A stretch of 64,000 nt of DNA. Origin: Eledone cirrhosa (taxonomy: Eukaryota). Made by a program: the position numbers and the translations under genes. Location of the stretch: contig OZ024742.1 of assembly GCA_964016885.1 (NCBI GenBank), positions 51,150,001 through 51,214,000 of the forward strand. The letters are read 5' to 3'. Shown here piece by piece: positions 3,305 to 36,764 of the stretch (positions are counted from its first letter, which is position 1; each line of letters begins with the position of its first letter). Below the pieces are notes generated by a model that was given only the letters and a program-made list of their open reading frames with translations, did not search any database and was not told the origin of the DNA.

Positions 3305-3840
3305 CTACCTGGTGGCCATGGCGAAAGAGATCATGTGGTGGACAAGGTTGAAAGGGTTAAAGACAGACATTTTCCTCTTCGGCGAATGCCTGATTAACTT
3401 TTTCAAGTTTCACTTGAAGAGGAAATCAGGTTGGAGAGGCAAGTGCTGTTTTGTAGCAAGTTTGTTGAAAGGTGGGTGAATGTAGCGAGAAGGGTCCGAG
3501 TGAACGAGACCGCTCTGAATATACGCTTGTAGTTTGAGGAATGGAAATATTGAGATAGGGCGCTTGCCCTGGTGGCCAGGGTGTCTGTGGTGTTATGTGT
3601 GGTTTTCGCCACGAGTAACCCTCGGAGGTTTCCCCTCTATTGTGGAATCTTTCATTGTTTGAATGTTCGTTTTTATTGTTTATATATATATATGTTTCTA
3701 TATCTTTTTTTTTTTCGTTTCTTATATGAATAATAAAGATTTTACACGCACAAAACCTACATCGTACCGTCCTGTACCGTCCTGTGCCGACTGTAATGTT
3801 TTTCTTGATGTCAGCCCTTGTGGCCAATAAAGACATAACA
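3305..3840 (+). mobile_element. 5'-truncated Tx1/L1-type LINE (B0): end of ORF2 plus 3'UTR
   Basis: Translates LVAMAKEIMWWTRLKGLKTDIFLFGECLINFFKFHLKRK, matching the ORF2 C-terminus of the minus-strand elements (closest to B3). Ends CCCTTGTGGCCAATAAAG followed by (TAA)n. Confidence 0.9.
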
Positions 3841-3845
3841 ATAAA

Positions 3846-3897
<52 letters not shown>
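3846..3897. repeat. (TAA)n tract between B0 and A1
   Basis: Directly visible. Confidence 0.95.
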
Positions 3898-6800
3898 GGG
3901 AAGAAGACGCACGAGGTGACGGAGGTCATGAAATCGTTCCCGTAAGTTTTGAATTTTTAACATATTTAAATCATTTGTGAAATAACAACTCTTAGTACAA
4001 ATGCTACGTAAAGCACCCGGCTTGAACCCCAAAAAATTCGGACCCAAAATATATTGTTATAAGGCACAAATATTCAAATATTCAACTTTGTATTGTACAC
4101 TGTATATCAAAAAAAAAAAAAATGGCTATAAATGGAAGAAGAAGAACCCCCCCCCCCCCTCCTCTCCTCTGGCTACACTATATAGGACAGCTAAACTCAC
4201 CAACACCAGAAACTAGATACACCACCCACCCCATCATCTGTGTACACTAAACACAACAGCATTTTCACCTTCACCGCCACCGCTCACTACGGCCATCATT
4301 ACCACCACTATCCCATCACCGCCGCCACCACCCCTTGACTCCTTCACTGCTGCTGCCACCGCTACAGCACCATCACTACAGTAATACGGTCGCATCACCG
4401 CCACCACTGCCTCGGTATCGACATCACCACCACCACTGTCTCAGTATCGCCAACGCCGCCAGTCTCCCACTTCTCCCTGTTGGCTGCCACTTCCACATTA
4501 TAGAATTCCTACTACTAACAAAGAGGAAGGCATCAAAATATATAGATAGACCCAAAAGAAAAAAGAAAAAACAAACAACAAAACCAAAGCAGCACAGCAA
4601 CAACAGCAAAAAACGAGAAAAACAAACAGAGAAAAACAAAAACAAAAAAAGAAACCCCAAAAACGTAAAGAAAATAAGAATGAAGAGAGAAGCAGGCGGA
4701 CGGACAGAGAAGAGGGGGGGAAAAGTAAAACTTAAAAAACAAAAACTAAGTCAGACATTCGAATACTACATTACAATGAAACTTATGCTTATTCATTTTT
4801 GGGGCCCTTTCTGCCCGTGTGTTTGTTTGTTTATGTGTGTTCGTATACAGCGTGGTGATAATGCCACACAAGGGCCAAGTGGGATGGCGGATCCACAGAT
4901 GGCTATGTAAACATACATTCGCCAATCCTCGATAAGAGTGTTTAAATATCGAACATAAACAGTTCGAATAACGGTGAAATGGAGACTAGAACGTCATGTG
5001 ACAGACTCTCACCCAACAGGTGCCCCCTGGCTCAGCAGCAGGAACCTGACTGTCAACCAAATACTGCTGATGTTGGAGGAAGAAGAAGAAGGAAAGGGGC
5101 CAGAACCAACTGGACGAAAGAATTGAATAGAACTGTTATGCAATGCTACCTGAAAAGTAACCCCAAGGAGAGGGGCTACAGGAGACGGATGCATAACATC
5201 TGGAACGAGATTGGTTTATTTAAATTAGATGAACAAAAATTGGCCGGGTAGGCTCGGGTAATAAGAACTAATGGGTGGATAAGCGAGCTGGAACTGGAGG
5301 AACTGAGCAGAGAGAATGGCTTGGAGATGGCGGGTGTAGTATGCCAGACAAGCGAGCCGGCGGGAAATGAAGGTGAGGAGGTCCTGAGAACGGAGGAACC
5401 ACCCGAAGCAGACAATGATCTGAATACTGAGATAAATAATACCTGGGACAGAGATACGGCCACTGAGGAGATGAATGCTGACGGGCTAGGACAAGATTCG
5501 GTTGACATCCTAAATTTAGTGGTAGATGAGTTGAACAATGATAGTGAGAGACCTATGAACCTAAGATTTGTAGACAGGAAAAAGTTAAAAGAAACAACAG
5601 CTAAGGTAAACAAAGTCATCCCATACCTTGAGGCGAGGAGTCTTCACCAGTGCAACAATATCCTCAAAGCAACAGCAAATAGGGTGAGGAAACTATTTGG
5701 TATAAAAGCGAGAGGAAACAACAGAGAAGAAAGAGCAGAGCCGTGGTGGAAGAAGCGACTGAGTGGGCAAATCGGGGAAATGAGAAATGACATAGGAAAG
5801 CTTGAGTCACTACTGAATGGGACACTAAAAAACATAGGCACTAAAAATAGACTGGAAATAAAATACAAAACTAGGAGTAAAAAGCTAAATATTATCATAG
5901 AGGAATTGAAGCAACGCATTGTAGCAAAGAGTGCCAAAATCAGGCGATACGAGAACAGAGTCAGTCAGTATAAACAGAACCGCATGTTCGACAACAACCA
6001 GAAGATGCTGTTTGGACAGCTTGAGGGGAAAGAAAGAGGCAACGACTTGATCCCTGGGGCGGAACAAGCTAAAACATTCTGGAGAGGAATATGGGAGCAG
6101 GATGTTAGACACAATGCCCAGGCAGGGTGGATTGAGACAGTACAGAGGGAGATCGGTGAGCAGGCACAACAACAGACTGATTTGAGTATCACAGTTGAAA
6201 CTCTTAAGGGGCAAGCCAAAAAACTAACCAACTGGAAATCACCAGGCCCAGATGGTGTGCAGGGGTATTGGATTAAACATTTAACATCCCTCCACCCGAA
6301 GCTGACGGCCATGTTCAATGACTGCTTGGTGTCGGGTGAGGTGCCAGAGTGGTTGACAAAAGGTACCACAGTTCTGATAATGAAAGACCGAATCAAGGGT
6401 AATGATGTTACCAACTATAGACCTATCACATGTCTGCCCGTAATGTGGAAACTGTTGACGAGCATTGTGTCTGAGGAAATCTACCATCACCTCCACACAA
6501 ACAACTTGTTACCGGACGAACAGAAAGGATGCCGAAAGAAGTCACGTGGTACAAAGGACCAGTTGCTTATTGATAAGATGGTAATGGGGAATTGCAGGAG
6601 GAGACACACTGATCTTGCCATGGGATGGATAGACTACAGAAAGGCATTTGACATGGTGCCTCATTCCTGGATCACCAAAAGCCTGGAGATCTTCAGGGTG
6701 GCAGATAACATCAGACAGTTTCTGGGCAGGAGTATGGTGTCCTGGGAGACAGAGTTGACATCAACTGGAGTATCCTTGGGAAGCGTGAAGATCAAGAGAG

Positions 6801-8446
6801 GTATCTTCCAGGGAGATAGCCTGTCCCCTCTGTTGTTTGTCCTTGCCCTGATGCCCTAGACCATTATGCTGCGAAAAGTGAGAGCAGGATACAAGTTGGG
6901 AAGAGGAGAGCTTACCATCAATCACCTCCTCTTCATGGACGATCTTAAGCTCTTCGGGAAAAGTGAGAAGGAGTTGGATGTGCTTGTTGACACTGTCCGT
7001 ATTTTCAGCAGTGATATATGTATGCAGTTTGGTATTGGTAAATGTGGAGTCATTGTGATGAAGAGGGGTAGGTTGAGCAGAAGTAACGGGATCCAGATAC
7101 CAACAGGTGAGATGATAAATGAAATTGACTCTGAGGAAGGATACAAGTATTTGGGCGTTCTGGAGGCTGATGGCATAAAGAACAAAAAAATGAAGGAATT
7201 GTTAAGAACTGAATACATTCGGAGAGTAAGGAGCGTATTGAAGTCACATCTGAACAGCAGAAATGCCATAAGCGCAGTAAATTCCCGAGCTGTGTCTATT
7301 ATTAGGTACAGTGCGGGAATTCTGAGATGGAATGTTGCTGAACAAAAAGAAACGGATAGGAAGACTAGGAAGCTATTGACTATCTACAACATGTTCCACA
7401 AGAGGAGTGATGTCGATAGACTCTACCTAAGGAGATCTGAGGGTGGAAGAGGTCTTATCAGCATAGAGGACTGTGTTCAGATGGAGAAAAACAACCTATA
7501 CAAATACGTGACCTATAGTAAGGAGCCAATGCTCAGAGCTGTACTGAAGGAGGGGACAGTAGGCCAGGGGATATCCAAGGAGGAAATAACATCAAGGAGG
7601 AAGAGCAGCCTTAAGGGAAAATCCCTTCATAGTACCTTCTTTGAGAAAACTGAATTTAGAGATCCACAGACATGGAACTGGTTGAGAAGAGGAGACCTCA
7701 AAAAGGCTACAGAAGGAATGCTAATGGCTGCGCAGGAGCAGGCCCTCAAAACGAAGTGGTTGAAGCACCATATCTACAAGGAGGAGGCTAGCCCACTGTG
7801 CAGGATCTGTGGAGAGAGAGAGGAGACTGTGGCTCACATTGTGTCCGAGTGTAAACACCTAGCCCAGACCCACTATAAGGGCTGGAGACACGATGTGATG
7901 GGCAGGGTGATCCACTGGCACCTGTGCAAAGTAAACAATCTACCACATTCTGAGAAATGGTATGAGCATAGGCCAGAGGCGGTGATGGAGAACAGTCAGG
8001 TGAAGGTGCTGTGGGATTTTAGGATACAGACGGACAAAAAACTGGAACACAATAGACCTGACCTGGTGGTTGTGAACAAAGAAAAAAGATCGTGCCTGAT
8101 TGTGGATGTGGCCTGCCCGTTCGACACGAGAGTGCAAGAGAAGGAGAGGGAGAAAATTAACCGATACCAGGACCTAAAGTGGGAGGTGAAAAGGATTTGG
8201 AACTGCCATGAAGTCAAAGTGATCCCGATTGTCATAGGAGCACTGGGGACTATCTCCAAAGGTTTCCAGGGATGGTTAAAGAAAATCGGCCCCTTCACGC
8301 TTTTTGGAACGCTTCAAAAGGCATGCTTGCTTGGAACAGCAAGAACCCTCCGATACGTCCTGAATATCTGAGGCTGCAGGTAGTGGCTTGATATTCAATC
8401 CAACGGACTTTCCAGTTAACCAACATCAATGACTGAGATTCAAGGA
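3898..8446 (+). mobile_element. Full-length R4/Dong-type RLE non-LTR retrotransposon (A1)
   Basis: Same 5' start (GGGAAGAAGACGCACGAGG) and 3' end (GACTGAGATTCAAGGA) as the copy at 16066-20705. Flanked by (TAA)n. Carries a single RT+RLE ORF. Confidence 0.92.
4979..8371 (+). pseudogene. A1 ORF (1130 codons): N-terminal Myb-like region, RT, CCHC finger, PD-(D/E)xK endonuclease; two in-frame TAG stops
   Basis: Three ORF-track pieces share one frame. Motifs: [50 protein letters not shown]. The TAG at 5249 is CAG in A2; the TAG at 6857 is TTG in A2 and A3. Confidence 0.93.
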
Positions 8447-8457
8447 ATAACAACAAT

Positions 8458-8496
<39 letters not shown>
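8447..8496. repeat. (TAA)n tract at the tail-to-tail A1/B1 junction
   Basis: Directly visible. Confidence 0.95.
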
Positions 8497-8497
<1 letters not shown>

Positions 8498-8739
8498 TTT
8501 TCTTTATTAACCATAAGGGTTTACATAAAGTAGACATTAAGGACAGTACAGGACAATACAGGACGGTACAAATGGGAATTTCTGCGTGTAAAAAAAACAG
8601 AGGATGAAATAAAATAACAAAGAAAAATTCCCCAATACGGGGAAGACTTCCGAGGGACATTTGTGGAGAAAGCCCATTAAAAGACCACTGTGGCCCTGAC
8701 CACCAGGCAAGTGCCCTCTCCCAGTTTTCCACCTTTAAT

Positions 8740-11700
8740 TTACGGACACATACTCAGAGAAGGCCCATTCATTCGGGCCATACTTGCTTCTCTCACCCAT
8801 CTTTCAACAAAATGCTGGGAAGAGAGCACTTCCCTCTCTACCCTGATTTTCCTTTTCAGATGAAATTTGAAAAAGTTAATCAGGGCATCACCGAAGGGGT
8901 AAGTGCTCGTCTTCAGCCCTTTCAAACGTGTCCACCATACTATCTCTTTCGCCATGGCCACCAGACAGATAAAAACTGCCTGCCCTTCCCGGCTAAAGGA
9001 AGATGGCGGGGCAATCCTCACGATGGACTCAGCTGATAGCTGGATCCGTCCTACACGTGACAGAAGGTGTTCGACATAAACCCACAAGTCAGCAATGCTC
9101 AGACACTGGACGAGTGCGTGCAGGACGGTTTCGTCGCCCTGTGCGCATCTCGGACATGCCCGGCTGACGGCACCTCCATGCCTGTAAAGTTTATCCCGAA
9201 CTGGCAAAGCACCCCGGTAGCACTGCCAGGCCAGGGATTTCTGGAAGTTGTCCATAGGCCCCGGCCCGAAAGTCCTTCCGAAGAGATTGGCTAGTTGATT
9301 TTCGTCGACGTCTAGAGTTTCTCCAAGTACGTCGTCGCTCTTCCCCTCCACTAATCCCCTATAGGACGCCAAGGTGGAGTTTCCACCGATCACATTGCCC
9401 GATTGGTCGAGGGCTGTGAGCGCCTGAAGACATTCCAGTCTCCAAGAGCTCCCTCTCGGTCTTCGCTTGACCCAGGACTGCAGCTCCATCAAGGAGACGA
9501 GCTGGGGAAAAACGTGTCTAGCAAACGGCGACCACACCTGATCACCGTCGAGGAAGAGGTGGAATGTCGTAGCCTGAGCGCGTGTCTGCGCATCATCGGC
9601 CACGGCATGCCCAGCCCTCCAAGTAGCGGGTGTTGACAGCAGATGGACCGCCTGACCATCGGAGCGCGTCCCTTCCACAAGAAGCGAAAGAGCAAACGCT
9701 CCAGCACAGTCAGGCGGGGCTTAGGACAAGGTACGATGGTCAGGCGGTAGTAGATGACGGACGCGATGTACGCGTTAGCCACCTCCGCTCGACCTTTCAG
9801 GGATAGCTTCCTCTCCGCCCATTTCTGGGTGAGAGAAGCCACCCTGCTCGTCACCTCGTCCCAGTTTTTGTCCGTCTGGAGGTCTGGACCGAACCAGACC
9901 CTTAGCAAGTTTATCGGTCCGTCCGTCCAGCGCACGACGACGCTGTTGGACGGCATGGACCTGCCTCTCCAGGAGCCGAGATGCAGGCCCACTGACTTTT
10001 CCTGGTTGATCATTGCTCCTGTCACCGCTTCGTATTCTCTTAGTGTAGTGCCGATCGCCTCGATGTGTTTGGCGTTCGACACCACTACGGTGACATCGTC
10101 GGCATATGCTGACACGGATCTTCCGCATCCTAGTTCGCGCGGGATCCCCCTCATTGTCTCCAGTTTGTGCAGTAATGGCTCGAGAGTCAATACGTACAAT
10201 AGGGACGAGAGGGGACATCCTTGGCGGACCGAGCGCATGATGTTGAACGGTTCCGAAAGGTGACCGTTCACTCTCACTACAGAGCAGATGTTGCTGTGCA
10301 TGGCAGCGATCCAGCCTCTGAAGACGGGCCCAAAGCGAGCCGCCCTCAGGACTGCCGCTAGGTAACGATGGTCGACCCTATCGAAGGCTTTCGACTGAGC
10401 TAAATTGATCAAAGACCAACCCGTGCCAGGTTCCCTAGCTACCCTCTCTACGATGTATCGCATGAGGTGGAGGTTGTCGTGGATGGATCTGTCGGGAATG
10501 GCACATGCCTGTGCCTCTCCCACCAGACCACCAACGACAAGCGCCAACCTCTTTGCTAGCACCTTGGACAAAATCTTGAACTCTGTGTTTAGCAGAGTTA
10601 TGGGCCTAAAATTATCTATGTTATCCCCCTTGTTCGGATCCTTTCTCAGCAGCGCCACCGCTCCTCGGCTCACAGAGCTGGGAATTCTCCCGTTCTGTTG
10701 CCAGTTGCAGTAGACGTCCGCCAAGAGGCCTCCGAACAAGTTTGGCATTTGTACGTAAAGTTCATAGGGCAGACCATGCAAACCAGGCGATTTACCCCTT
10801 GTGCAACTTGTCATTGCATCCCGTATATCAGCGGTTGTTATCGGCTTTTCGCAACACTCCGCCTCAGTGGCCGAAAGCGGCGGCAGTCCGTCAAGGTAGA
10901 CACTAAAGTCCATCCCTCGATCCGGCCCGCCACTGCCCCCGAACAGTTGAGCGAAGTGTCGCTGAAAAGCTTCACACATTTGCCCGGGATCGAGTAGCAT
11001 GCGCCCGTCGTGGTCCACCAAAGACGCGCCTTCGCCACTCGGGCCCATTGAACGGCTTTCGTCCCCTCGTGTCCGGGAGCACGCACCCTAGCTCTGACAA
11101 TGCAGCCTTCGTGCTTTGTATTGAAGAATTGGTCAAGGGCCAATTTCGCCGCAAGTACGTCGGTCGCGATGCCTTTGCTAAGCGCCTCATCTAATTTTCT
11201 AACTAATTCTCCCTCTGCTCTATTTTTCTCTATTGCTAAAGTCTTACTAAACCTAATGGACTCTATTCTAATTGCTCTTTTCAGAGCAAACCACCACTTG
11301 TTGTTGACGATGGCCCCCGTCAACGCCCTCTTAACTAGTTCGATAATCCGGTCTCTGTAGGCCTTGCGCGCTGGTAAGGACGCGTTTAGATTCCAGTAGC
11401 CGGGTCCTCGTCTATGAAGCCTATCTAAGTCAAGCACACAGATCACGAATGTGTGGTCCGTGTAGCTGACTATCTTGAATTGTGGACAGCCTATGCTAGA
11501 CCTATCTATTTCTCTACAAAATACTCTATCTAGATATGATCTGGATGACCCTACGCGATTTGTCCAAGTCCACATTGGCACATTCGAGAAATCCATTCGG
11601 TACCTGTCAGACAGTTCAAAACGTCTGAGCAAGTTGGTGAGACTCTTGCACCCTCCTTCCCTATCCACTAATCCCACACAATCCCAGCGTGCATCTAAGA

Positions 11701-12133
11701 TCCCGTTCCAGTCGCCCACTAACACTAAAGAGCGGGACGTTCCAAGAAAGGTCTCCAGACGCCTGAAGAAATCAGGCCGCCCTGCTCCTATCGTGGCATA
11801 GACGGCCACTAACCTGAAAGCTTGCCCGTCTCCGCTGGTCACGTCCAGCACCACCAACTTACCTTCTGGGTCCAGGAAGATGGCCCGTATGGCAAGATCC
11901 AAACCTCTCCGAAAAAGCACAGCAACTCCTCCCCCCGATCCCGGACGGCTGGGAGATGCGTACACCTCGTAGCCGCCGATGATCGGTGCGAAAGCCTGTG
12001 CCTCGGAGATTCTGGTCTCGCTGATGGACACTACATCTATGCTTAGTGACCTGAGGTCGTTGAGCAGGTGGCCCTGCTTCCATGACGACCCCAAGCCACG
12101 CGCATTTATGCTGCCTATTCTGAGTGAGGTCAT
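8740..12133 (-). pseudogene. B1 ORF2: APE endonuclease, RT, C-terminal zinc finger; frameshifted
   Basis: Motifs GSINARGL, GDWN, SYLDR, TDH, RQGCPLS, YADD, CPRC..H..C. Relative to B2 it has a 25-nt deletion near 11025 and a 1-nt deletion near 9563. Confidence 0.92.
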
Positions 12134-12167
12134 GTTGAAAAGGAGTGGAAAAGATGGGAAAGACCAC

Positions 12168-15996: not shown

Positions 15997-16063
<67 letters not shown>
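15997..16063. repeat. (TAA)n switching to (TTA)n, a self-complementary microsatellite
   Basis: Strand flips at ~16026. Confidence 0.95.
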
Positions 16064-26619: not shown

Positions 26620-26654
26620 GTTTAAAATAGAGTGGAAAAGATGGGAAAGACCAC

Positions 26655-28751
26655 TTACCGTATTTTTGGTAGAGGAGGGATGGTTTTTACATCCCTTTTC
26701 ACTTGATCGTCTGGTGAAGGGACCGTTGAATCGTCCCTTCGGCTGGTCGTCGGCTCTTCTAAGAGAATGTCTGAATATACTCTTCGATTAATGGTTCCTC
26801 CTAGGTCCCTGAAATCACCAACTGCGTTGGGGAATTTCGTTTTAATGTTTGTGTATTGTTTCTGTGCTATTTTTAGCAGTCTTATGTTAGTTGGCGTTTT
26901 GATTGGTGCTGGTATTATGTAGTCCTGTTGTGAAATGTCTGTGTGTTCAATTATGTAAGTCATTAGTTTCTTGTTGTGTGTGTTTATTGCCGTGCATTTG
27001 TTTTTCTGGGGGTGGGGTGTGGTTCTGCTATTTTCTTGTCGTTGTTGCTGGGTGTGTGTGTTTTGTTGTTGTGTTTGCGATGTTGGTGCTTGTGGTGGTG
27101 GTGTTGAAGGTGTTGTTGGCGGTGGGGTTGTCGCCGGTGGTGATGGTGGTGCTGGTGTGGGTGGTGATGGTGTTGGTGGTGTTGCTGCTGTGGGTCTCTT
27201 TGCAGTAGACTTTACCCTTTTCTCATTTCTTTCCTCCCTTTTCAAAGGCGACGATGCGCTGCTTCTGCGTTTGTGCCTTCTTGAGACCTTTTGCCATCCC
27301 TCTCCCACCTCACACTCCATGTCTGATTCTGTAAGGTCGGGGAGGGGTACCAGCTCCACTCTTTCACTTGTTGTTGTTGGTGATGTTTGCACTGGAGTCT
27401 CTGTTGCAGCTGCATTTGGTATTGCTGTTGTTGTTGTTAATATTTCCACTGCTGCTGCTGTCTTTGATTTCCGTGGAGTGGGTATGGGTGCCACGGACCT
27501 ATCGTTCCTGGTTGCCGCTTGTCCTGTTGCTGGTAGCCGTGGAACCGGATTCGGGAGGAGGGGGGTTTTCTCCTTTCTCAGGGTCTTCTCGTTGCAGAAG
27601 GCCCTGAGGTGAGTCTTCGATCCACAGCGAAAGCATTTCGGGCGTTTGCCCTCAACACTTATGGGCAGTTGAGTGCCGTTATCGAAGTCTATCACATCCG
27701 GGATAGCTTCGATGCACTCCTGGTTGGTTTGGATTAGCATCTCAATGGAGGAGCCGACCCAATCTTCTCTTACTTTTTTCTGTACTTGCAGTACAGTTGT
27801 TTTGTCCTCGATTCCGACGAGGACAGACGCGGCCAGCCAAGAAGGGGTCATTCCGGGGGGGACGTGGGTCAGTTTGACCCTCACAATTTTTTGCCCGCAG
27901 TAGGAGGGCACCAACACCATTTCCTCGCTCCTTAGGGTCACTACTGATTGGGCCTTTGCCTCCTGGGGTGTGGCAAAAAGTACGTCTACGGTGGCGTATT
28001 TTTTGCCTCGGGTGATGTGCGTTTTCCTCTGCCACACAGACCCCAAGGCTTTTTGTATTTGGGCCTCTGTGGCTCTTTCCACCCTACGGGATTTTGTACT
28101 TACTGTACGGTACGTGACCGTACAGTGCTCTTGGGTTTCGAAAAAATTTTTCGCTGCCTTGCAGATTGCTCGGTGTCCGTTCTTTGTCACCATCTTCTTC
28201 GCTTCCTCTAATTCCTCATTTGTTATGAGGATTGTTTCCAGGTTTTTCGCAATACCTGCAAATGAGATTGGTTTTTCTCTGCTGTTGTTGTTGTCGTCAG
28301 AGCTGCTGGTACTTTTGTTGTTGCTGCAGGTACTACGACTACTGCCTCCGCCGCTGTTGCTGTGGTTGTTGTTGGTGTTGCTGCTGCTAATGCTGTTGTT
28401 GTTTATGCTGCTGGTGATGCTGTTGCGGCTGCTACTGTTGTTTTCATTGTCACTGTTGCTGTTGTTATTACGGCTGCTACTGCTATTATTCCTGACGTCA
28501 GACGAATGAACTGGGTTTTCGTATTTCCCGCACACCTGTTTCGTCGCTGTCGTCGTCGTCGTGGAGAAACCTTGCACGCTTTGCACGAGACTTTTCTTTT
28601 CTTTCGTCGCTTGCGAAAGAGAAGGGAGGGAGAGAGACACATTTAAAGAAGGGAGGGAGAGAGACAATCTTCTCTCTCCTGTAGTGATGATTGAGGAAGA
28701 AGAAGACGGAATGAGTGGGAGTGACGTATGAAATTTCTTTTTGGTAGCCAT
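26655..28751 (-). CDS. B2 ORF1, 698 aa: low-complexity S/N and P/T regions, conserved core, CCHC zinc knuckle
   Basis: Uninterrupted ORF from ATG in AACATGG context. CFRCGSKTHLRAFC fits CX2CX4HX4C. Confidence 0.9.
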   Translation of the reverse strand: MATKKKFHTSLPLIPSSSSSIITTGERRLSLSLPSLNVSLSLPSLSQATKEKKSLVQSVQGFSTTTTTATKQVCGKYENPVHSSDVRNNSSSSRNNNSNSDNENNSSSRNSITSSINNNSISSSNTNNNHSNSGGGSSRSTCSNNKSTSSSDDNNNSREKPISFAGIAKNLETILITNEELEEAKKMVTKNGHRAICKAAKNFFETQEHCTVTYRTVSTKSRRVERATEAQIQKALGSVWQRKTHITRGKKYATVDVLFATPQEAKAQSVVTLRSEEMVLVPSYCGQKIVRVKLTHVPPGMTPSWLAASVLVGIEDKTTVLQVQKKVREDWVGSSIEMLIQTNQECIEAIPDVIDFDNGTQLPISVEGKRPKCFRCGSKTHLRAFCNEKTLRKEKTPLLPNPVPRLPATGQAATRNDRSVAPIPTPRKSKTAAAVEILTTTTAIPNAAATETPVQTSPTTTSERVELVPLPDLTESDMECEVGEGWQKVSRRHKRRSSASSPLKREERNEKRVKSTAKRPTAATPPTPSPPTPAPPSPPATTPPPTTPSTPPPQAPTSQTQQQNTHTQQQRQENSRTTPHPQKNKCTAINTHNKKLMTYIIEHTDISQQDYIIPAPIKTPTNIRLLKIAQKQYTNIKTKFPNAVGDFRDLGGTINRRVYSDILLEEPTTSRRDDSTVPSPDDQVKRDVKTIPPLPKIR

Positions 28752-28964
28752 GTTTTTTTGTTTAAAATGAAATTTTGGGTACAAAACCCCAATAACTGGC
28801 TATTTAACCCCGAAGGGCCAAATAACGGACAGAAAGACCCCTCTCACGAGGAGGAGGGTGTCTTTATCAACAATTTGGTTCAAGTTTTAAACAATTTACA
28901 ATTGTTTTAACGGTTAAAAATTACTATACCTTACAGAGCCGAGCCTCCGTCAACCATGGCATTC

Positions 28965-28984
28965 AATAATAATAATAATAATAA

Positions 28985-29015
<31 letters not shown>

Positions 29016-29035
29016 AAGAAGAAGAAGAAGAAGAA
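28965..29035. repeat. (TAA)n followed by (AAG)n
   Basis: Directly visible. Confidence 0.95.
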
Positions 29036-29434
29036 CCTGGAACACAATAGACCTGACTTGGTGGTTTTGGATAAGGGAAAAATATCGTGCTTGTTTGTGT
29101 ATGTAGCCTGCCCATTCGACACGAGAATGCAAGAGAAGGAGAAGGAGAAATTTAACCGATACCAGGACTTAATGTGGCAGGTAAAAAGGGTTTGGAACTG
29201 CCATGAGGTCAAAGTTTACCCGATTGTCATAGGCGCACTAGGTACTATCTCAAAGAATTTCCAAGGATGGTTAAAGAAAATTGGTCCGGCCCCGCTTTTT
29301 GGAACATTTCAAAAGGCATGCTTGCTGGGAATAGCTAGAACCCTCCGATACGTCCTGAATATCTGCAGATAGTGGCTTGATATTCATTTCAACAAATTTT
29401 CCAGTTAAATAGCATCAATGACTGAGACTAAAAG
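29031..29434 (+). mobile_element. Short 3' fragment of family A (A4)
   Basis: [28 protein letters not shown], followed by an A-type 3'UTR. Confidence 0.9.
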
Positions 29435-29444: not shown

Positions 29445-32400
29445 CTCATGATTTCTTTATTGGCCAGAAGGGCTCACAACAAGAAAAACAATACAGATCG
29501 CACAGGATGGTACAGAACGGTACAGGACGGTACGATGTGGGTTTTGTGCGTATAAAGATTTTTATTATTTATATAAGAAAAGAAAAAAAAGACATAGAGA
29601 CATATATATATATAAACAATAAAAATGAAAATTGAAACAATGAAAAATTCCCCAATAGGAGGAAACCTCTGACGGTTACTCGCGCGAAAACCAGATAAAA
29701 GACCACGGCCATCCTGACTACCAGGGCAAGCGCCCTCTCTCGATTTTTCCATTTCTCAAACTACAGGCGTATATTCAGAGCGGTCGCGTTTACTAGGATC
29801 ATTCTCGCTACATTCAGCCACCTTTCAACAAATTGCTAGAAGGCAGCACTTGCCTCTCCACCCTGATTTTCCTCTTCAAGTGAGACATGAAATAGTTAAT
29901 TAGGGATTCGCCGAAGCGGAATATGTCTGTCTTTAACCCTTTCAACCTTGTCCACCACACGATCTCTTTCGCCATGGCCACCAGGCAGATGAAAACCGCC
30001 TGCGCTTCCTCCTCGAAAGAAGACGGCGAGACTATCTGCAAAATGGACTCAGATCAGTCCTACACGCGACAGCAACTGTTCGACATGGATCCACAAGTCA
30101 GCAATGCTCGGGCAATGAACGAGTGCGTGCACGACGGTTTCGTCGCTCTGCCCGCATCTCGGACAGGCTCGGCTGACGGCACTTCCGTGCCTGTAGAGGT
30201 TATCTCGAACCGGAAACGCTCCCCGGTAGCACTGCTAGGCCAGGGATTTTTCGAAGTTATCCATAGGCCCTGGGTTGAAAGTTCTTCGGATGAGAGCAAA
30301 CAGCTCATCGTCTTCGACTACCAGGATCTCTCCGAGAACGTCGTCGCTCTTCCCCTCCACTAGTCCTCTATAGAACGCCGCGGTGGATGTTCCACCAATA
30401 CTGGTGCCAAGCTGGAAGAGGTCAGTGAGCGCCTGGAGACATTCCAGTTTCCAAGCGCTATACCTAGGTCTTTTCCTGACCCAGGACTGAAGCTCTGTCA
30501 AGGAGACGACCTGTGGGAAAACGTGCCTGGCGAACGGCGACCACACCTGTTGACCGTCAAGGAAGCACCAGAGATGTCGCAGCCTCAGCGCTTATTTGCG
30601 CATCATCAGACATGGCATGCCCAGTCCTCCACGCAACGGGTATTGACAGCAGATGGATCGCCTGACCATGAGAGTGCGTCCCTTCCACAAAAAGCGGAAG
30701 AGGAGGCGCTCCATTTCGGTGAGAATTGGACCGGGGCAAGGGACGACAGTGAGGCGGTAGCAGATGACGGATACGATGTACGCATTCGCCACCCCCACCC
30801 GGCCTTTCAGGGACAGCTTCCTCTCGGCCTATTTCTGGGTTAGGGAAGCCACCTACTTGTCACCTCGCTCCAGTTTTTCTCCATCTGGAGGCCCGGGCCG
30901 AACCAGACCCCGAGCAATTTAACCGCTCCGTCCGTCCAACACCCCACGACGCTGTCGGGCGGCATGGACTTGCTTCTGCAGGTGCCGAGCTACAAGCCAC
31001 GCGACTTTTCCTGGTTTATCTTTGCTCTTGTGACCGCTTCGTATTTATTGAGACCGGTGCCGAACCTCTGGACGTGTCTCGTGCTCGACACCACCACTGT
31101 GACGTCGTTGGCGTAAGCCGCCTCGGATTTCCCGCATCCTAGTTCGCGTGGGACGCCCCTCATCGCCCCCTAGTTTGTGCAGTAACGGCTCGAGAGCCAA
31201 TACGTACAAGAGGGACGTGAGGGGACAACCCGGGCGGACCGAGCACATAACGCTGAACGGCCGCGACAGGTAACCGTTCCCCCTCACATCTGAGCAGATG
31301 CCGCTGTACTCGCAGCGATCCAACCCCTGAAAACGGGCCCGAAATCGGTTGCCTCCAGCACCGCTGTCAAGTACCAATGGTCGACCCTATCGAATGCTTT
31401 GGATTGATCCAAGTTGATCAGAGCACCACCCGTGCAAGGTTTCTTAACCACCCTCTCTATGATGTATCGCATGAGGTGGAGGTTGTCGTGTATGGATCTG
31501 TCCGGGATAGCGCATGTCTGCGCCTCTTCCACCAGACTTTTCACGACAAGCGCCAACCTCGTTGCTAACACCTTAGCCAAAATCTTGAACTCTGCGTTTA
31601 TGGGCCTGAAGTTATCGATGACATCCCCCTTTTTCAGGTCTTTTCTCAGCAGCGCCACCGCTCCCCGGCGCACAAAACTGGGAATGCTCCAGTTATGCTG
31701 CCAGTTGCAGTAGACGTCTGGCAAGAGGTCACCGAACAAGTCTGGCATACATGCATAAAGCTCGGAGGGCAGAGCATCCAAACCTACCGATTTACCCCTC
31801 GTGCAGTTAGCCATCGCTTCCTGTATTTCACCGGCTGTTATTGGCTTTTTGTAACACTGTGCTGCGGTCGTCGAGAGCTGAAGCAATCCGTCGAGTTATG
31901 CACTGAAGTCCATACGCTGAAAAGCTTCACACATCTGCTCGGTTTTAGCAACACCCGCCCGTTTTGGTCAGATAAAACCGAATTGTGGCTTTTTTACCAC
32001 GTCGCGCCTCTGCCACCCGAGCCCATTGGACGGCTTTTGTCCTCTCGTGTTTCAGAGCACGCGCTCTATCTCTGACAACGCAGCCTACGTGTTTTGCGTT
32101 GTAGAATTGGTCGATTTTCAATCTCGCCGCAAGCACGTCGGTTGAGATGCCTGTCCTAAACGCCTTTTCTAGCTTTCTAACTAACTCTCCTTCTACTCTA
32201 TTTTCCTCTATCACTACTCCTTTACTAAACCTTATCGATTCTACTCTAATAGCCCTTTTCAGGGTAAACCACCACCTGTTGTTGACGATCGCACCCGTCA
32301 ACGAACGCTTAACTAATTCGGTATCTGTAAGCTTTGCACGCCGGGAACGACGCGTTCGGCTTCCAGTAGCCGGGCCCTTGCCTATGGCGTCTATCTAAGT

Positions 32401-35028
32401 CAACTTCACAGATCAAAAAATGTGTGGACCGTGTAGTCGACTACTTTAAATTGTGGACAACCTACACTAACCTTATATGTTACCCAACAGAATACCCTAT
32501 CTAAATACGATCTGGATGACTCGATGCGGTTTGTCTATTTCCATATTGGCACATTCGGAAAATCCAGTCTATACCTGTCAGACAGTTCAAAACGTCTCAG
32601 CAGGTTGTTGAGGCTTTTACACCCTCCTGCCATGTCTACTAGCCCCACATAATCCCAGCGTGCATCTAAGATACCGTTCCAGTCGCCCACTAACACTAAA
32701 GAGCGGGTCGTTCCAAGAAACTTCTCTAGACGTCTGAACAAATCTTGCCGTCCGGCCCCTGTCGGGGCGTAGACGGCTACTAGCCTGAAAGCATTACCTT
32801 CGCTGCCGGTCATGTCCAGCACCACGAACTTACCTTCTGGGCCTATGAAGATGGCCAGTATGGCGAGATCTAAGACTCTCCGAAAAAGCCGGCAAACCCT
32901 CCCTCCGATCCTGGACGGCTGGGAGATGCGCATACATCTTAGCCGCTAAAGATCGGTGCGAAGGCTCGTGCTTCGGAGATTCTCGCCTCGCTGATAGCCA
33001 CCACATCTATGTTTAATGATCTGAGGTCGTTGAGCAGGTGACCCTGCTTCCAAGATGACCACAGGCCACGTACATTTATACTGCCTATTCTAAGTACGGC
33101 CATGTTGGATAAGAAGCGGAGTAAGTGAGAAAGGATCACTTACCTTGACTGTGTGGTGAAGGGACACCACACAGGTGTTTCCAAAGGGATGTCGGTGTAT
33201 ATTCTCTTGTAACCGACTCCTAAAGACTCCAACTGTGTTGGGGAATTTTTGCTTTAAAAGTTTCTAATGTTCTATTGAGATTTCTATGATGCTTATGCTT
33301 ATCGGGAGAGTTCTTGGTTTTGGTGGGGAGTAGTACTTTTTTCTCTGATGTCTATGTGCTACTTTATGTGTTGTAGGAGTTCCTTATTTGCCAAGTTTAT
33401 GGCTGTGTATTTTCAGGTGGGAGGAGTGGTTTTGTTGCTGTTTTCTTGTTGCTGTTGGGTGTGCGTGTTTTGATGTGTTTGCGATGTTGGTGTTGTTGGT
33501 GATTGCTGGTGGGGGTGGGGTTGTTGTTGGTGGTGATACTTGTGGTGCTGATGGTGATGCTAAAAGTCTCCTTGCAGCCTTTACCACTATTTATCTGACT
33601 TCACTTTTGGAGGGTGATGCTAAGGTTTTTTTTTCCTTTGTGATTTTTGTGGCAAACAGTTTCTCGCCTCACACTCCATGTCGGACTCCACGGCGTTCGG
33701 GAGGGGTATGAGCTCCACTGATGTTGGTGTTGGTAGTGGAGCCCGCTCCGGTGATATTACCTCCGGCGTAGCTACTGCGACTGTTGGTGTTGCCGCCACT
33801 GATGCCGCTGCTTTAGTTGTCCGTGGCCTTGGTATGGGTGCCACGGACGTTGCCATCCTACTCACCATGGAAGGGTATTCTGCCTTTGATGCCAGCCGTG
33901 CTCTTGGTAGCAGCGGATCAGGTGTCGGAAGGAGTCGGGGGGCTCTTCTTGGATTTCTTCTGCAGGCAGAAGGCCCTGAGGTGACCCTTCTTCCCACAGA
34001 GATTGCACTTTGGGCGCCTTCCTTCCACGCATATAGGGAATCCGAGCCCTTCCTCGATGTCTATGTGGTCTGGGACGGCCTCGATGCACTCCTGGTCAGT
34101 CTGTATTAGCATTTGCATGTCTATTCCTGACCAGTTCTCTCTTCCCATTCTCTGTATTTGCAGTATGGTGGTCTTCTCCTCTGTGGTTCTCTCTACCCGA
34201 TGCGACATGTTGATTACGGTGCGGTAAGTCACCGTGTGTAGTTGCTGATCTTTGAAGAAATCGGGTGGAGGTTTCAGGAAAACTCTGTTGTCGTTTCTCG
34301 ACACCATGGCTCTTGCGACTGCCATCTGCTCCTCCGTGACTAGCACTGTTTCTATATTTTCGGCCACACCTCCGAAAGAAGTGGCCCCTTTTTCAGCGGC
34401 ACCATTATGCTGCCGCTACTGGTCTTGTTGTTGGTGTTGTTACTGTTGCTACTGCTACAAACGGTGTTGTTGGTGTTGTTGCTGTTATCACTGTTGTGGT
34501 TGGTTGTGTTATTGGTGCCACCGTTGTTGTTGTTTTCGGTGCAATTTGTATTGTTGCTGTAGGTGCTGTCGTTGTTTATGTTCTTGTTAGTGGTGTTAAT
34601 ATCGTTGTTGCATTTTTTTTTTTTTGGTTGACACTGTTATTGTTGTAGTTGGTGTGATAATTCTTTCGAAATTAGTGTTCTCAGTGTTGTCTTTGTTCAC
34701 GTTATTTGTGGTGGTGTCTGTTGTAACAATGTTTGTAACCATCTTCTGAACTTTGACGCCGTTATCAGACGACACCGGACGTATTGCTTGTCATGGCTCA
34801 GCCATGTTTTTTTGTTGTTTCTTTTTTTAAACAATTTTTTTTTTTAAAGTAAAATGGCTCAAATATTTGGGCCAAAAGGCCCACATATATTACTTTCCCC
34901 TTCACAGGGCAAAGTCTAAGGGCGTATATCCCTTACACAACCAGAAATATTTAACAATAAATCATTTTAACAGGCAAATAAAGCGACTTACTGGGAGCGA
35001 GCGAGCAAAAAACCTCCGAAGAGACCGA
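29445..35028 (-). mobile_element. Full-length degenerate Tx1/L1-type LINE (B3)
   Basis: ORF1 relic ~34805-33140 (CNLCGKKGHLRAFC). ORF2 relic 33103-29761 with many frameshifts. AATAAA at the 3' end and TAA on both flanks. Confidence 0.9.
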
Positions 35029-35056
35029 TAATAATAATAATAATAATGATAATAAG

Positions 35057-35240
35057 TGTTTCTACTTTTGGCACAAGGCCAACAATTACCCAGGTGCATT
35101 ACTGGTACTTTATGTTATCGACTCCGTAAGGATGAAACGCAAAGTTAATCTCGGCGGGATTTAAAGTTCGATCATACAGGGAGGTAGCTCTATAGTTCAA
35201 AGCATGGCGTCCGACCTTCTACCGATACTGCCAATCCACT
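35057..35240 (-). mobile_element. tRNA-derived SINE
   Basis: Reverse complement of the copy at 52036-52222; lies between TAA tracts. Confidence 0.85.
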
Positions 35241-35247
35241 AATAATA

Positions 35248-35499
35248 GGATTTAAAGTGAAAGTTAAAAAAGATTTGGAACTGCCATGAAATCAAGGTCG
35301 TCCCGATTGTCATAGGCGCACTAGGTACTATCTCAAAGAGTTTACTAGGATGGTTAAAGAAGATTAATCCAGCCCCGCTTTTTGGAACACTTCAAAAGAC
35401 ATGCTTTCTGGGAATAGCAAGAACCCCCCGATACGTCCTTGATATTCATCTCAACAAACTTTCTAGTTAAATAACACCAATAACTGAGACTCAAAGATC
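35248..35499 (+). mobile_element. Short 3' fragment of family A (A5)
   Basis: [22 protein letters not shown], followed by an A-type 3'UTR and (TAA)n. Confidence 0.85.
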
Positions 35500-35526
35500 A
35501 ATAATAATAATAATAATAATAATAAT

Positions 35527-36300
35527 GTTAACCCATTAGTAGTTGGCATCCTCTGGACTGAAATCGCAGACTGAAGGACTGATTATATCAGCACAAGATC
35601 AGTGTCTGCCAACAAAAAAATTATCAAGCCAACATTATAAAAAATGGATGCAACCCATTATGCCGTGTATGTAAAAAACAACCAGCGACCATTGATCATA
35701 CATTGGATAATGTGTAAGCATTTTGACCTGCCCCATCAAAAGAATTGGTGGGAGCATCAATTACCTCCCATACTTGAAAAGGATCACATCTCAATCTTGT
35801 GGAATTTAGCATCCAAACAGACCGAAAAAGAGATGCAAATAGACCTGATATAATACTGAAGGACTTTGAAAAGAGGGTATGCCTGCTAATTGATATGTCC
35901 GTTCCAATAGACAAGAATGTATCTATAAAAACATTTGAAAAATTGAGCAAGTATAATGATCTGGAGTTAGAAATTGGAAAAATGTGGAAGAGGAAAACTA
36001 AAACAATACCAGTGGTTGTAGGCGCTCTAGGAATTATACCTAAGGGGTCTAATGATTACTTATCGCAAATCCATGGAAACCTGCGTATAAGAGAAATACA
36101 AACGGTAGTACTAATGGGAACTGCCCATATACTAAGGGAGATACTATCAATATATGTACATCACAAGTCTAAACACGTAAAGAGGCATGTGTTTGTATGT
36201 ATGTTCTTTCTTGAACATGGCGGACCTTGTTCTCTCTGGAGGTCTCTGGTTGTGACTTGGTGATAACTCGTATGAACATAAAGCAAGATAAATGCAACTG
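35527..36300 (+). mobile_element. 5'-truncated family-C copy (C2)
   Basis: Colinear with C1 from ~15157, with an internal deletion. Same 3' end GATAAATGCAACTG. TAA flanks. Confidence 0.9.
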
Positions 36301-36310
36301 CAATAATAAT

Positions 36311-36496
36311 TGTTTCTACTTTTGGCACAAGGCCAGTAATTCACCAGTGCATTACTGGTACTTTATTTTATCGACCCCGCAAGAATGAAAGGCAAATTTA
36401 ACACCGGCGGGATTTGAACTCAGAATGGCAAGGGCCGTAACTCTATGCGTCAAAGCATGGCGTCCGACCCTCTACCGATACTGCCAATCTACCGCC
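36311..36496 (-). mobile_element. tRNA-derived SINE
   Basis: Full copy, abutting the C2 TAA tail and followed by (TAA)n. Confidence 0.88.
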
Positions 36497-36764
36497 ATTG
36501 TAATAATAATAATAATGATAATAATAACAACCACAACAGCAACGACAACAACAACACACCAACAACAACTACAACAAACGATGCTGACTATTTTCGGTAT
36601 TGGTTAAACACCTGGATATAGAATCAATTAGACCAAATATAGTACAGGTGTTCACAACAGCAAAGGCAGTTAATGACAGTTAGATGAGTGACGCCACAAA
36701 TTTTTAAAAAATCCCAAAACAACAACAAAGGCAACAACAAATTTAGTGGGTAAGTTTTCTTTAG

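What the first reader, a model, noticed from the sequence alone, without database searches (positions are those of the whole stretch)
3305..36530. 33-kb strand-partitioned stack of retroelements built on (TAA)n microsatellite
Seen, in order: B0+, A1+, B1-, C1+, A2+, A3+, B2-, A4+, B3-, SINE-, A5+, C2+, SINE-, with TAA-type tracts at every junction and almost no other DNA. All seven RLE copies read in the TAA sense. All three full-length APE elements and both SINEs read in the TTA sense, which produces three tail-to-tail A/B pairs (8446/8497, 22880/22937, 29434/29445). Established: Dong (R4 clade) targets TAA repeats, and some Tx1 families target microsatellites. Inference: two unrelated endonuclease types share one target on opposite strands, and each insertion regenerates the target, making a self-amplifying landing pad. 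Convergent read-through could produce dsRNA or piRNA.
Basis: partly seen in the sequence, partly recalled or inferred. Interest (0 to 1): 0.75.

Follow-up and report, generated by a model that had tools for sequence, protein, structure and literature searches.

The report
Two LINE types sharing TAA microsatellites
This 33-kb block of an octopus-like genome is a pile-up of two unrelated kinds of jumping gene around one TAA microsatellite, each kind always facing its own way, likely because their cutting enzymes start on opposite DNA strands; the same pattern recurs across the genome.

Summary

- **A and C** are two families with a reverse transcriptase, a CCHC finger and an R2-like restriction-type endonuclease. 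All seven copies read in the TAA sense.
- **B** is an L1-like element with an AP-type endonuclease. The three full-length copies read in the ATT sense.

The rule holds genome-wide. In sampled loci outside the window, element ends next to a tract were 142 of 143 TAA-sense for A/C and 98 of 98 ATT-sense for B. B next to A/C across a tract was inverted in 41 of 42 pairs, and the odd one is a spurious hit. All 12 of the first long TAA tracts on contig C1 lie in such stacks.

Caveats:
- A/C truly sit inside tracts.
- B always carries ATT at its ends, but only 3 of 18 5'-truncated B copies have ATT upstream, so its targeting is less strict.
- The SINE is dispersed and ends in its own short ATTATT.
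- B0 and the (ATT)12 before A2 break the rule.
- The small-RNA idea is untested.

The closest precedent is TRAS1/SART1 in silkworm telomeric repeats. I rate this a new variant of a known kind.

The parts
3298..3836 (+). B0: 5'-truncated 3' end of a B-type (APE) LINE on the + strand. It lacks the usual ATT tail and is followed by TAA, so it is the one exception to the polarity rule among B copies.
   Evidence: 86% identical to the 3' end of B3. Sequence read. 27 of 29 other copies of this subfamily have three or more ATT units at the 3' end.
3835..3897 (+). (TAA)21 tract between B0 and A1
3898..8445 (+). A1: full-length A element (RT, CCHC finger and restriction-like endonuclease). The reading frame is broken.
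   Evidence: The 5' end GGGAAGAAGACG is shared with 29 other genomic copies.
8446..8496 (+). TAA tract joining A1 and B1 tail to tail
8497..14327 (-). B1: full-length B element of a subfamily whose 5' 2.1 kb is unrelated to that of B2
   Evidence: B1-type 5' ends recur in L124, L128 and L216.
14328..14348 (+). (TAA)7 tract between the B1 5' end and C1
14349..15996 (+). C1: 5'-truncated copy of C, a second RLE-bearing family, 32-41% amino-acid identity to A
15997..16063 (.). (TAA)10 flipping to (ATT)12. This junction of opposite senses is unexplained.
   Evidence: The same structure stands before a 5'-truncated A in L058.
16066..20704 (+). A2: near full-length A with an 84-bp deletion relative to A1
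20705..20786 (+). (TAA)27 tail of A2, which is also the target of A3
20788..22879 (+). A3: 5'-truncated A with an open 708-aa frame covering RT, CCHC and RLE
22880..22936 (+). TAA tract joining A3 and B2 tail to tail
22937..28964 (-). B2: full-length B with two long open frames, ORF1 26655-28799 and ORF2 23200-26787 (APE, RT, zf-RVT). It is a very young copy.
   Evidence: Its 3' 300 bp is identical to 16 other copies and its 5' 300 bp to 9 others.
28965..29035 (+). (TAA)8 followed by (AAG)16, a filler typical of A 5' junctions
   Evidence: Similar fillers occur in L134, L144 and L036, L053.
29036..29433 (+). A4: short 5'-truncated A of a diverged subfamily, 84% identical to A1
29445..35027 (-). 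B3: full-length B of a third subfamily, 77% identical to B1 and B2
35029..35055 (+). TAA tract between the B3 5' end and the SINE
35049..35240 (-). SINE copy; its own 3' terminus reads ATTATT
35247..35498 (+). A5: short 5'-truncated diverged A
35499..35526 (+). (TAA)9 tail of A5
35528..36300 (+). C2: 5'-truncated C
36303..36492 (-). SINE copy inserted into the short TAA tail of C2
36501..36577 (+). Residual TAA tract grading into (AAC)n; this is the right edge of the stack

Best explanation
The block is a pile-up of retrotransposons in and around one (TAA)n microsatellite, in which the restriction-endonuclease LINEs (A, C) all read in the TAA sense and the AP-endonuclease LINEs (B) read in the ATT sense, likely because the two enzymes make their priming nick on opposite strands of the same repeat.

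Shown:
- A and C encode RT, a CCHC finger and an R2-like restriction-type endonuclease. They are flanked by TAA on both sides, whether full-length or 5'-truncated.
- B encodes an AP endonuclease, an L1-like RT and a C-terminal zinc domain. It ends in (ATT)n, and full-length B2 copies start after at least six ATT units.
- Neighbours of the same class are co-oriented and neighbours of different class are inverted, here and across the genome.

Inferred from the target-primed reverse transcription model (R2, L1):
- The A/C enzyme nicks the TTA strand, and the (UAA)n 3' end of the RNA pairs with it.
- The B enzyme nicks the TAA strand, and the (AUU)n 3' end of B RNA pairs with it.
- Each new copy leaves a fresh double-stranded tract as its tail, so the site keeps accepting insertions of both classes and grows into a stack.

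Which element entered which tail cannot be told from the final structure. Both orders probably occur.
For: Domains.
- A ORFs hit RVT_1 and no APE domain. B ORF2 hits Exo_endo_phos, RVT_1 and zf-RVT.
- A profile of A, C and their relatives hits solved R2 proteins at E 8e-45, covering the RT, the CCHC finger and the RLE (RLE stretch i-E 6.5e-4; 9dou is matched in one stretch, profile positions 397-1102) (single sequence).
- The best solved match of B ORF2 is human L1 ORF2p, E 3e-52 over residues 60-911.

Polarity of ends.
- 29 of 29 B2-type 3' ends are followed by (ATT)n (L019 was dropped because the exact anchor was not found).
- 27 of 29 copies of the B0-like subfamily outside the window have three or more ATT units at the 3' end.
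- 30 of 30 A 3' ends are followed by an AAT tract.
- 30 of 30 full-length A 5' ends are preceded by an AAT tract, and 30 of 30 B2 5' ends by at least six ATT units.
- Deduplicated ends next to tracts: in element-anchored loci A/C 116 TAA-sense against 1, and B 91 ATT-sense against 0. In tract-anchored stretches A/C 26 of 26 and B 7 of 7.

Neighbour pairs joined by a tract.
- B against A/C: 36 inverted against 1 co-oriented, plus 5 inverted against 0. The one co-oriented pair, in L142, is a 65% low-complexity hit.
- B-B 13 of 13 co-oriented. A/C-A/C 31 of 31 co-oriented.
- Binomial test on 41 of 42: p = 2e-11.

Tracts and stacks. All 12 of the first distinct (TAA)>=12 tracts on contig C1 lie beside A, B or C elements, 11 of them with an element on both sides.

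A sits inside tracts. 17 of 19 5'-truncated A copies have TAA immediately upstream.

B enters natural tracts. Complete B2 copies sit in compound microsatellites, as unique DNA-(ATT)n-B2-(ATT)n-(AT)n or (TG)n (L151/L219 and L161/L007; L227/L228).
Against: - Only 3 of 18 5'-truncated B copies, mostly of the older B0/B3-like subfamily, have an ATT tract just upstream. Several abut unique DNA or SINEs. No target-site duplications were recognisable.
- The ATT before full-length B2 is always in one phase (…ATTATTG|AATGCC) and is exactly seven units in five loci with unique flanks: L153, L161, L162, L174 and L179. It may therefore belong to the element rather than to the target.
- About 12 of 29 B2 3' tails are followed by unrelated sequence.
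- Exceptions to the rule: B0 in the window; the (ATT)12 before A2 and the same structure in L058; L111 with a two-unit tail followed by a TAA run; L095 with no tail.
- No biochemical evidence shows which strand either enzyme nicks.
- The samples were the best-matching (youngest) copies and one chromosome end, not a full census.
Confidence: 0.7

Rival explanations
1. B does not home to the microsatellite at all. It is an ordinary L1-like LINE whose transcripts carry (AUU)n, and it lands at loosely AT-rich sites. The strictly TAA-specific A/C elements then insert into B's tails. This alone would always make the two classes inverted.
For: 15 of 18 5'-truncated B copies lack an upstream ATT tract. 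The ATT before B2 is in a fixed phase and is often exactly seven units long. About 12 of 29 B2 tails are followed by unrelated DNA. A tiny C fragment sits inside a B-B spacer in L104, so A/C do enter B tails.
Against: 30 of 30 full-length B2 copies have at least six ATT units upstream, often many more (11-20 units in L151, L166, L171, L176, L178). Complete B2 copies lie in natural compound microsatellites with ATT on both sides. In the window, three B copies of three subfamilies each interrupt one co-oriented A/C array. B2, identical over its ends to 9-16 other copies, lies between A3 and the diverged A4.
Confidence: 0.2
2. The stack grew mainly by unequal crossing-over or segmental duplication of composite units, not by repeated independent insertions.
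For: Elsewhere, tandem B2 arrays of about 6.08-kb period have identical spacers, including an identically interrupted one (L155-L157 and L163-L165). In the window, one 5.9-kb alignment at 95.7% crosses an A/B junction.
Against: In the window B1, B2 and B3 belong to different subfamilies: their 5' regions are unrelated and B3 is 77% identical to the others. The A copies are truncated at different points, the tract lengths differ, and no junction is duplicated.
Confidence: 0.05
3. The stack is an assembly artefact, with repeats collapsed or chained through TAA tracts.
For: Public contigs laid on the region break at every tract and bridge none of them, so the junctions could not be confirmed independently.
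Against: The same junction types recur at dozens of loci, with different tract lengths, truncation points and unique flanks.
Confidence: 0.03

Closest known systems
Dong (R4 clade), the (TAA)n-specific restriction-endonuclease LINE of Bombyx, Anopheles and the snail Biomphalaria
   Same: A and C have RT, a CCHC finger and a restriction-like endonuclease, and no AP endonuclease. They sit inside (TAA)n in the TAA sense with a TAA tail. Dong's TAA target is stated in a passage of PMC3812793. 'Dong-R4' families are listed as abundant and recently active in Octopus vulgaris (PMC13282606, Table 1 passage).
   Different: Clade placement by RT phylogeny was not done, because no named Dong or R4 reference sequence was available. 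Two families only 32-41% identical in protein share the target here.
Tx1-clade microsatellite-specific LINEs: Kibi (TC)n, Koshi (TTC)n, crocodilian Tx1 (TTCC)n/(TTTC)n
   Same: B is an AP-endonuclease, L1-group LINE associated with one microsatellite in a fixed orientation. Tx1 microsatellite targeting is described in passages of PMC4494074.
   Different: The repeat here is ATT/TAA, which I did not find listed for any AP-endonuclease LINE in the passages read. 5'-truncated copies often lack the repeat upstream. Tx1-clade membership is untested.
TRAS1 and SART1 of Bombyx mori in telomeric (TTAGG)n
   Same: Two LINE families occupy the same tandem repeat in opposite directions (PMC7265360, Discussion passage).
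   Different: TRAS1 and SART1 both use AP-type endonucleases; that paper describes their structures as similar, and that both belong to the R1 clade is recalled, not read. Here one partner uses a restriction-like and the other an AP-type endonuclease. The repeat here is an interstitial trinucleotide microsatellite that the elements themselves regenerate.
LINEs with non-poly(A) repeat tails: the I element (TAA)n and UnaL2 (TGTAA)n
   Same: The tail is a short tandem repeat copied from the RNA 3' end, variable in length (PMC3747384 passage).
   Different: Those elements are not described in that passage as homing to the matching microsatellite.

Membership tests
Dong / R4 clade (for A and C) | Restriction-like (PD-(D/E)xK) endonuclease and CCHC finger C-terminal to the RT | tested here: met
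   A profile of A, C and relatives matches solved R2 proteins through RT, CCHC and RLE. RPD...D...K residues are invariant in the alignment (P605, D606, D621, K637).
Dong / R4 clade (for A and C) | No AP-endonuclease domain | tested here: met
   No Exo_endo_phos hit in any A or C frame scanned. Only broken window copies were scanned.
Dong / R4 clade (for A and C) | Insertion into (TAA)n, in the TAA sense, with the repeat on both sides | tested here: met
   30 of 30 3' ends and 30 of 30 full-length 5' ends. 17 of 19 5'-truncated copies.
Dong / R4 clade (for A and C) | RT groups with Dong and R4 rather than with R2, NeSL, CRE or HERO in a phylogeny | not tested
   No named reference sequence could be obtained. 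The 120 listed homologues carry no family names.
L1 group / Tx1 clade (for B) | N-terminal AP endonuclease, RT and C-terminal zinc-binding domain in ORF2, with a separate ORF1 | tested here: met
   Exo_endo_phos, RVT_1 and zf-RVT in the 1195-aa frame. A 714-aa upstream frame has no Pfam hit.
L1 group / Tx1 clade (for B) | ORF2 closest to L1-group proteins | tested here: met
   Human L1 ORF2p at E 3e-52, against R2 at E 1e-21, among solved structures.
L1 group / Tx1 clade (for B) | RT groups with Tx1, Keno, Kibi and Koshi rather than with other L1 lineages | not tested
   No named Tx1 reference was available. The atlas and homologue lists give no clade names.
L1 group / Tx1 clade (for B) | Target-specific insertion, with the repeat on both sides of the copy | tested here: inconclusive
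   30 of 30 full-length B2 copies, but only 3 of 18 5'-truncated copies, have ATT upstream.
Opposite-orientation pair on one tandem repeat (TRAS1/SART1 type) | Two families in the same repeat array, always inverted relative to each other | tested here: met
   41 of 42 B against A/C pairs are inverted (the exception is spurious), and 44 of 44 same-class pairs are co-oriented.
Opposite-orientation pair on one tandem repeat (TRAS1/SART1 type) | Both partners are AP-endonuclease LINEs of similar structure (that both are R1-clade elements is recalled) | tested here: not met
   One partner has a restriction-like endonuclease and the other an L1-like AP endonuclease.
tRNA-derived SINE mobilised by B | tRNA-like head and a 3' end shared with the partner LINE | tested here: inconclusive
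   No tRNA call by ARAGORN and no Rfam hit. The last ~25 nt resemble the B 3' end only loosely. The SINE is co-oriented with B in 10 of 11 tract-joined pairs.

The most novel reading that the evidence does not exclude
Two mechanistically unrelated LINE lineages, one with a restriction-like and one with an AP-type endonuclease, have divided the two strands of a single trinucleotide microsatellite between them across a whole cephalopod genome. Because each insertion renews the tract, they build self-renewing composite landing pads that account for most long TAA tracts. The many tail-to-tail junctions would give convergent transcripts that could feed small-RNA silencing.
Probability: 0.3. Interest if true: 0.65.

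Novelty: new variant of a known kind. Interest (0 to 1): 0.5.

Why it matters
If both enzymes really recognise the same repeat from opposite strands, this is a natural side-by-side system for asking how target choice evolves in retrotransposons, with restriction-like against AP endonucleases on one simple DNA substrate.

It would also explain where many long TAA microsatellites of this genome come from, and why LINE copies cluster in stacks.

For genome annotators, it shows that these stacks are nested site-specific insertions rather than assembly noise. Site-specific LINE enzymes are also of current interest as tools for targeted DNA insertion.

Tried and rejected
- **Long-read or contig confirmation.** The one run search listed 24 coded runs, none on record as RNA (no RNA holder listed). 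Contigs of four runs laid on 20000-36700 break at every TAA tract and bridge no junction. Neither the assembly nor expression or small RNAs could be tested. The second read-laying run was not used.
- **Rfam and ARAGORN.** Rfam at gathering thresholds on the whole window gave 0 hits, so no HDV-like ribozyme or tRNA-like head was called. ARAGORN on 34900-36700 gave 0 genes.
- **Clade names.** The homologue lists and the protein atlas carry no family names. The only informative name was Argonauta hians, 69% identity to B ORF2.
- **Target-site duplications of B.** None was recognisable in 11 loci or around complete B2 copies.
- **Order of insertion from identity.** The A/C copies next to B2 are 90-99.5% identical to the window copies and B2 is 98.8-99.8%, which is not decisive.
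- **TAA over-representation.** (TAA)12 gives 141,743 overlapping matches, (AAG)12 gives 284,497 and (AAC)12 gives 32,052. TAA is not the commonest long trinucleotide repeat, and I dropped that argument.
- **Segmental duplication of the A/B pair in the window.** Rejected; see the rival explanations.
- **Earlier notes of this scan.** None on this genome or on these proteins.
- **Two calls failed** because a search term had fewer than three letters. Both were re-sent corrected.
Full report
**What is there.**
The window comes from a 3.0-Gb eukaryotic genome (G000, contig C3:51150001-51214000). The best named relative of one of its proteins is from the octopod Argonauta hians, at 69% identity.

Between 3298 and 36530 the sequence consists only of retroelement copies joined by TAA-type tracts. 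The evidence is the self-comparison, the ORF list, the Pfam scan, the tandem-repeat and pattern scans and direct reading of every junction.

Coordinates are in the parts list. The three tail-to-tail A/B junctions are at 8446-8496, 22880-22936 and about 29434-29444.

The pattern (TAA)5 with up to one mismatch occurs 101 times in the window, against 0.03 expected from shuffles.

**What the elements are.**

*Family A.*
- It has RVT_1 hits and no AP-endonuclease hit.
- An open 708-aa frame of A3 matches solved R2 proteins in the RT (E 6.5e-25) and weakly in the C-terminal endonuclease.
- A profile built from A, C and eleven database relatives matches R2 at E 8e-45 through the RT, the CCHC finger and the restriction-like endonuclease (RLE stretch i-E 6.5e-4).

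*Family C.*
- It is a separate family with the same C-terminal architecture, 32% and 41% identical to A over two frames.

*Family B.*
- It has a 1195-aa frame with Exo_endo_phos, RVT_1 and zf-RVT, and an upstream 714-aa frame without Pfam hits.
- Its best solved relative is human L1 ORF2p, E 3e-52 over residues 60-911.
- B1, B2 and B3 are three subfamilies. B1 and B2 are about 95% alike over the 3' 3.7 kb but unrelated over the 5' 2.1 kb. B3 is 77% identical to both.
- B2 is very young. Its 3' 300 bp is identical to 16 other genomic copies and its 5' 300 bp to 9 others.

I did not test by phylogeny whether A/C belong to the R4/Dong clade or B to the Tx1 clade, because no named reference sequence was within reach. 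An annotation paper on Octopus vulgaris lists Dong-R4 (5 families, 1129 insertions) and L1-Tx1 (13 families, 421 insertions) among recently active LINEs (PMC13282606, Table 1 passage). This fits the labels but does not prove them.

**Is the strand partition real beyond this window?**
I took the 30 best genomic matches to each of four element ends and read what lies beyond.

| Element end | Result |
|---|---|
| B2-type 3' ends | 29 of 29 run straight into (ATT)n in the B sense (one locus dropped: exact anchor absent) |
| A 3' ends | 30 of 30 run into (AATAAC)1-2(AAT)n in the A sense |
| Full-length A 5' ends | 30 of 30 preceded by an AAT tract, six with short fillers derived from the element's own GGGAAGAAG start |
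| B2 5' ends | 30 of 30 preceded by at least six ATT units |
| B0-like subfamily, other copies | 27 of 29 have three or more ATT units at the 3' end; L111 has two; L095 has none |

Beyond the tract after B2 3' ends lie:
- eight B 5' ends;
- four inverted A 3' ends, one of which is the window itself;
- three inverted C 3' ends;
- two SINE 5' ends;
- twelve other sequences.

Beyond the tract after A 3' ends lie:
- eight inverted B 3' ends, one of which is the window itself;
- eight A copies in the same orientation;
- one C copy;
- thirteen other sequences.

A scripted tally used unchanged window slices as the library and removed duplicate contexts. Element ends lying next to a tract were:

| Sample | A/C ends | B ends |
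|---|---|---|
| Element-anchored loci (174, window's own left out) | 116 TAA-sense, 1 ATT-sense | 91 ATT-sense, 0 TAA-sense |
| Eight 10-kb stretches chosen through tracts only | 26 of 26 TAA-sense | 7 of 7 ATT-sense |

Neighbours joined by a tract:
- B against A/C were inverted in 36 pairs (20 tail-to-tail, 16 head-to-head) against one co-oriented, plus 5 against 0 in the tract-anchored stretches.
- The one co-oriented pair (L142) is a 65% low-complexity hit that does not end at the tract.
- B-B pairs were co-oriented in 13 of 13, and A/C-A/C pairs in 31 of 31.
- 41 of 42 gives a binomial p of 2e-11.

**How common are such stacks?**
The pattern (TAA)12 has 141,743 overlapping matches in the genome. 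The first 12 distinct tracts listed on contig C1 fall in four clusters between 0.73 and 2.81 Mb. I fetched 80 kb around them. Every tract lies beside an A, B or C copy, and 11 of 12 have an element on both sides. Two of the regions are stacks like the one in the window, one of them in mirror orientation.

This sample is small and comes from one chromosome end.

TAA is not the commonest long trinucleotide repeat. (AAG)12 has 284,497 matches and (AAC)12 has 32,052.

**How strict is the targeting?**

*A.* It clearly inserts inside tracts. 17 of 19 5'-truncated A copies have TAA immediately upstream, at many different truncation points.

*B.* It is less clear.
- Only 3 of 18 5'-truncated B copies, mostly of the older B0/B3-like subfamily, have ATT upstream. 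Several abut unique DNA or a SINE, and I saw no target-site duplications.
- The ATT run before full-length B2 is always in the same phase (…ATTATTG|AATGCC) and is exactly seven units in five loci with unique flanks. It may therefore be part of the element.
- On the other side, complete B2 copies lie in what look like natural compound microsatellites: unique DNA-(ATT)n-B2-(ATT)n-(AT)n or (TG)n.
- In the window, three B copies of three subfamilies each interrupt one co-oriented A/C array.

The final structure is the same whether B enters an A tail or A enters a B tail, and identities did not settle the order. A 25-bp C fragment inside a B-B spacer (L104) shows that A/C do enter B tails. I conclude that the polarity rule is solid. 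B's active homing to TAA tracts is likely, at about 0.6-0.7, but not proven.

**The SINE.**
Thirty genomic copies end in …GTAGAAACAATTAT(TAT). None has four or more ATT units, and the flanks are diverse. The SINE is therefore dispersed, and its 'TTA sense' is its own terminus.

Where it does touch a tract it is co-oriented with B in 10 of 11 pairs and inverted to A/C in 8 of 9. Its last ~25 nt loosely resemble the B 3' end. That fits mobilisation by B but is weak evidence. No tRNA-like head was called.

**Other processes and exceptions.**
- Tandem B2 arrays elsewhere (C3 near 247.10 Mb, C1 near 441.12 Mb, period about 6.08 kb) have identical spacers, even identically interrupted ones. They grew by duplication or unequal exchange, not by separate insertions.
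- In the window nothing points to such duplication. The 5.9-kb alignment across the A1/B1 and A3/B2 junctions only reflects family similarity on both sides of a microsatellite.
- Unexplained exceptions are B0, which has no ATT tail and is followed by AACAATAAAAAT(AAT)n, resembling the start of an A tail; the (TAA)10(ATT)12 flip before A2; and the same flip before a truncated A in L058.
- A template switch during reverse transcription could make such joins. That is speculation.

**Mechanism.**
The domains, the flanks and the polarity are shown.

The rest is inferred from the target-primed reverse transcription model established for R2 and L1. The primer strand must pair with the RNA 3' end. A/C, with a (UAA)n end, would therefore prime from the TTA strand. 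B, with an (AUU)n end, would prime from the TAA strand. Each copy leaves a new tract of variable length, so the site is renewed.

**Comparison with the literature.**
- Dong's TAA target, and the AP-type microsatellite specialists Waldo, Mino, Kibi and Koshi, are listed in PMC3812793 (passage).
- Tx1 targets, including (TTCC)n and (TTTC)n, are in PMC4494074 (passages and section 15).
- RLE clades and HERO microsatellite specificity are in PMC4640811 (passages).
- TAA tails of the I element are in PMC3747384 (passage).
- TRAS1 and SART1 inserting into (TTAGG)n in opposite directions are in PMC7265360 (Discussion passage).
- Octopus papers name Dong and L1-Tx1 but, in the passages I saw, say nothing on targets or orientation (PMC9115989, PMC8967140, PMC13282606).

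Six full-text searches returned no paper describing an AP-endonuclease LINE tied to ATT/TAA repeats, or a restriction-type and AP-type pair on one microsatellite. I did not read Kojima and Fujiwara 2004, no supplements were opened, and Repbase and Dfam were not available. Such a family may therefore already be deposited.

It is a related kind of observation, not this one.

**Verdict.**
- It is a new variant of a known kind, namely site-specific LINEs sharing a tandem repeat in opposite orientation, as with TRAS1/SART1.
- Interest 0.5.

Noticed in passing
window 15997-16063; L058 around 1843-1863: A (TAA)n run flips directly into (ATT)n just upstream of an A 5' end. This is seen twice: before full-length A2 in the window and before a 5'-truncated A in L058. 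No element lies between the two runs. The origin is unknown.
   Followed up: partly
window 3826-3897: B0 ends without the family's ATT tail. It is followed by AACAATAAAAAT(AAT)n, which resembles the first units of an A tail (AATAACAATAAC...). It may be a chimeric or tail-only insertion.
   Followed up: partly
window 8497-14327 versus 22937-28964: B1 and B2 share about 95% identity over the 3' 3.7 kb (ORF2), but their 5' 2.1 kb (ORF1 region and 5' end) are unrelated. B subfamilies therefore differ by exchange of a whole module. B1-type 5' ends recur elsewhere (L124, L128, L216).
   Followed up: partly
window 28986-29035; L036, L053, L134, L144, L223: (AAG)n or GGGAA-type fillers lie between the TAA tract and A 5' ends, both full-length and truncated. 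The A element starts with GGGAAGAAGACG. A insertions may seed AAG microsatellites, which are very abundant in this genome (284,497 overlapping (AAG)12 matches).
   Followed up: no
G000 C3:247100649-247119185 and C1:441122388-441134837 (L155-L158, L163-L165): Head-to-tail tandem arrays of full-length B2 have a period of about 6.08 kb and identical ATT spacers. This points to array growth by duplication or unequal exchange.
   Followed up: partly
L151-L180 (5' flanks of B2): The ATT run before B2 is always in the phase ...ATTATTG|AATGCC and is never shorter than six units. It is exactly seven units in five loci with unique flanks. The B2 transcript may therefore start inside an ATT run.
   Followed up: partly
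window 43506-43685, 46728-46859, 52041-52230, 53048-53192: Four more copies of the same SINE lie outside the stack. The one at 46728-46859 abuts a short TAA run (46733-46753).
   Followed up: no
window 20787-29500 (runs X1-X20): Public runs labelled as 16 different coded organisms hold 12-79% of the sampled words of A3 plus B2. Contigs of three differently labelled runs cover A3 and B2 at 97% or more, but they barely cover B3. The young families seem to be shared by several related sources.
   Followed up: partly
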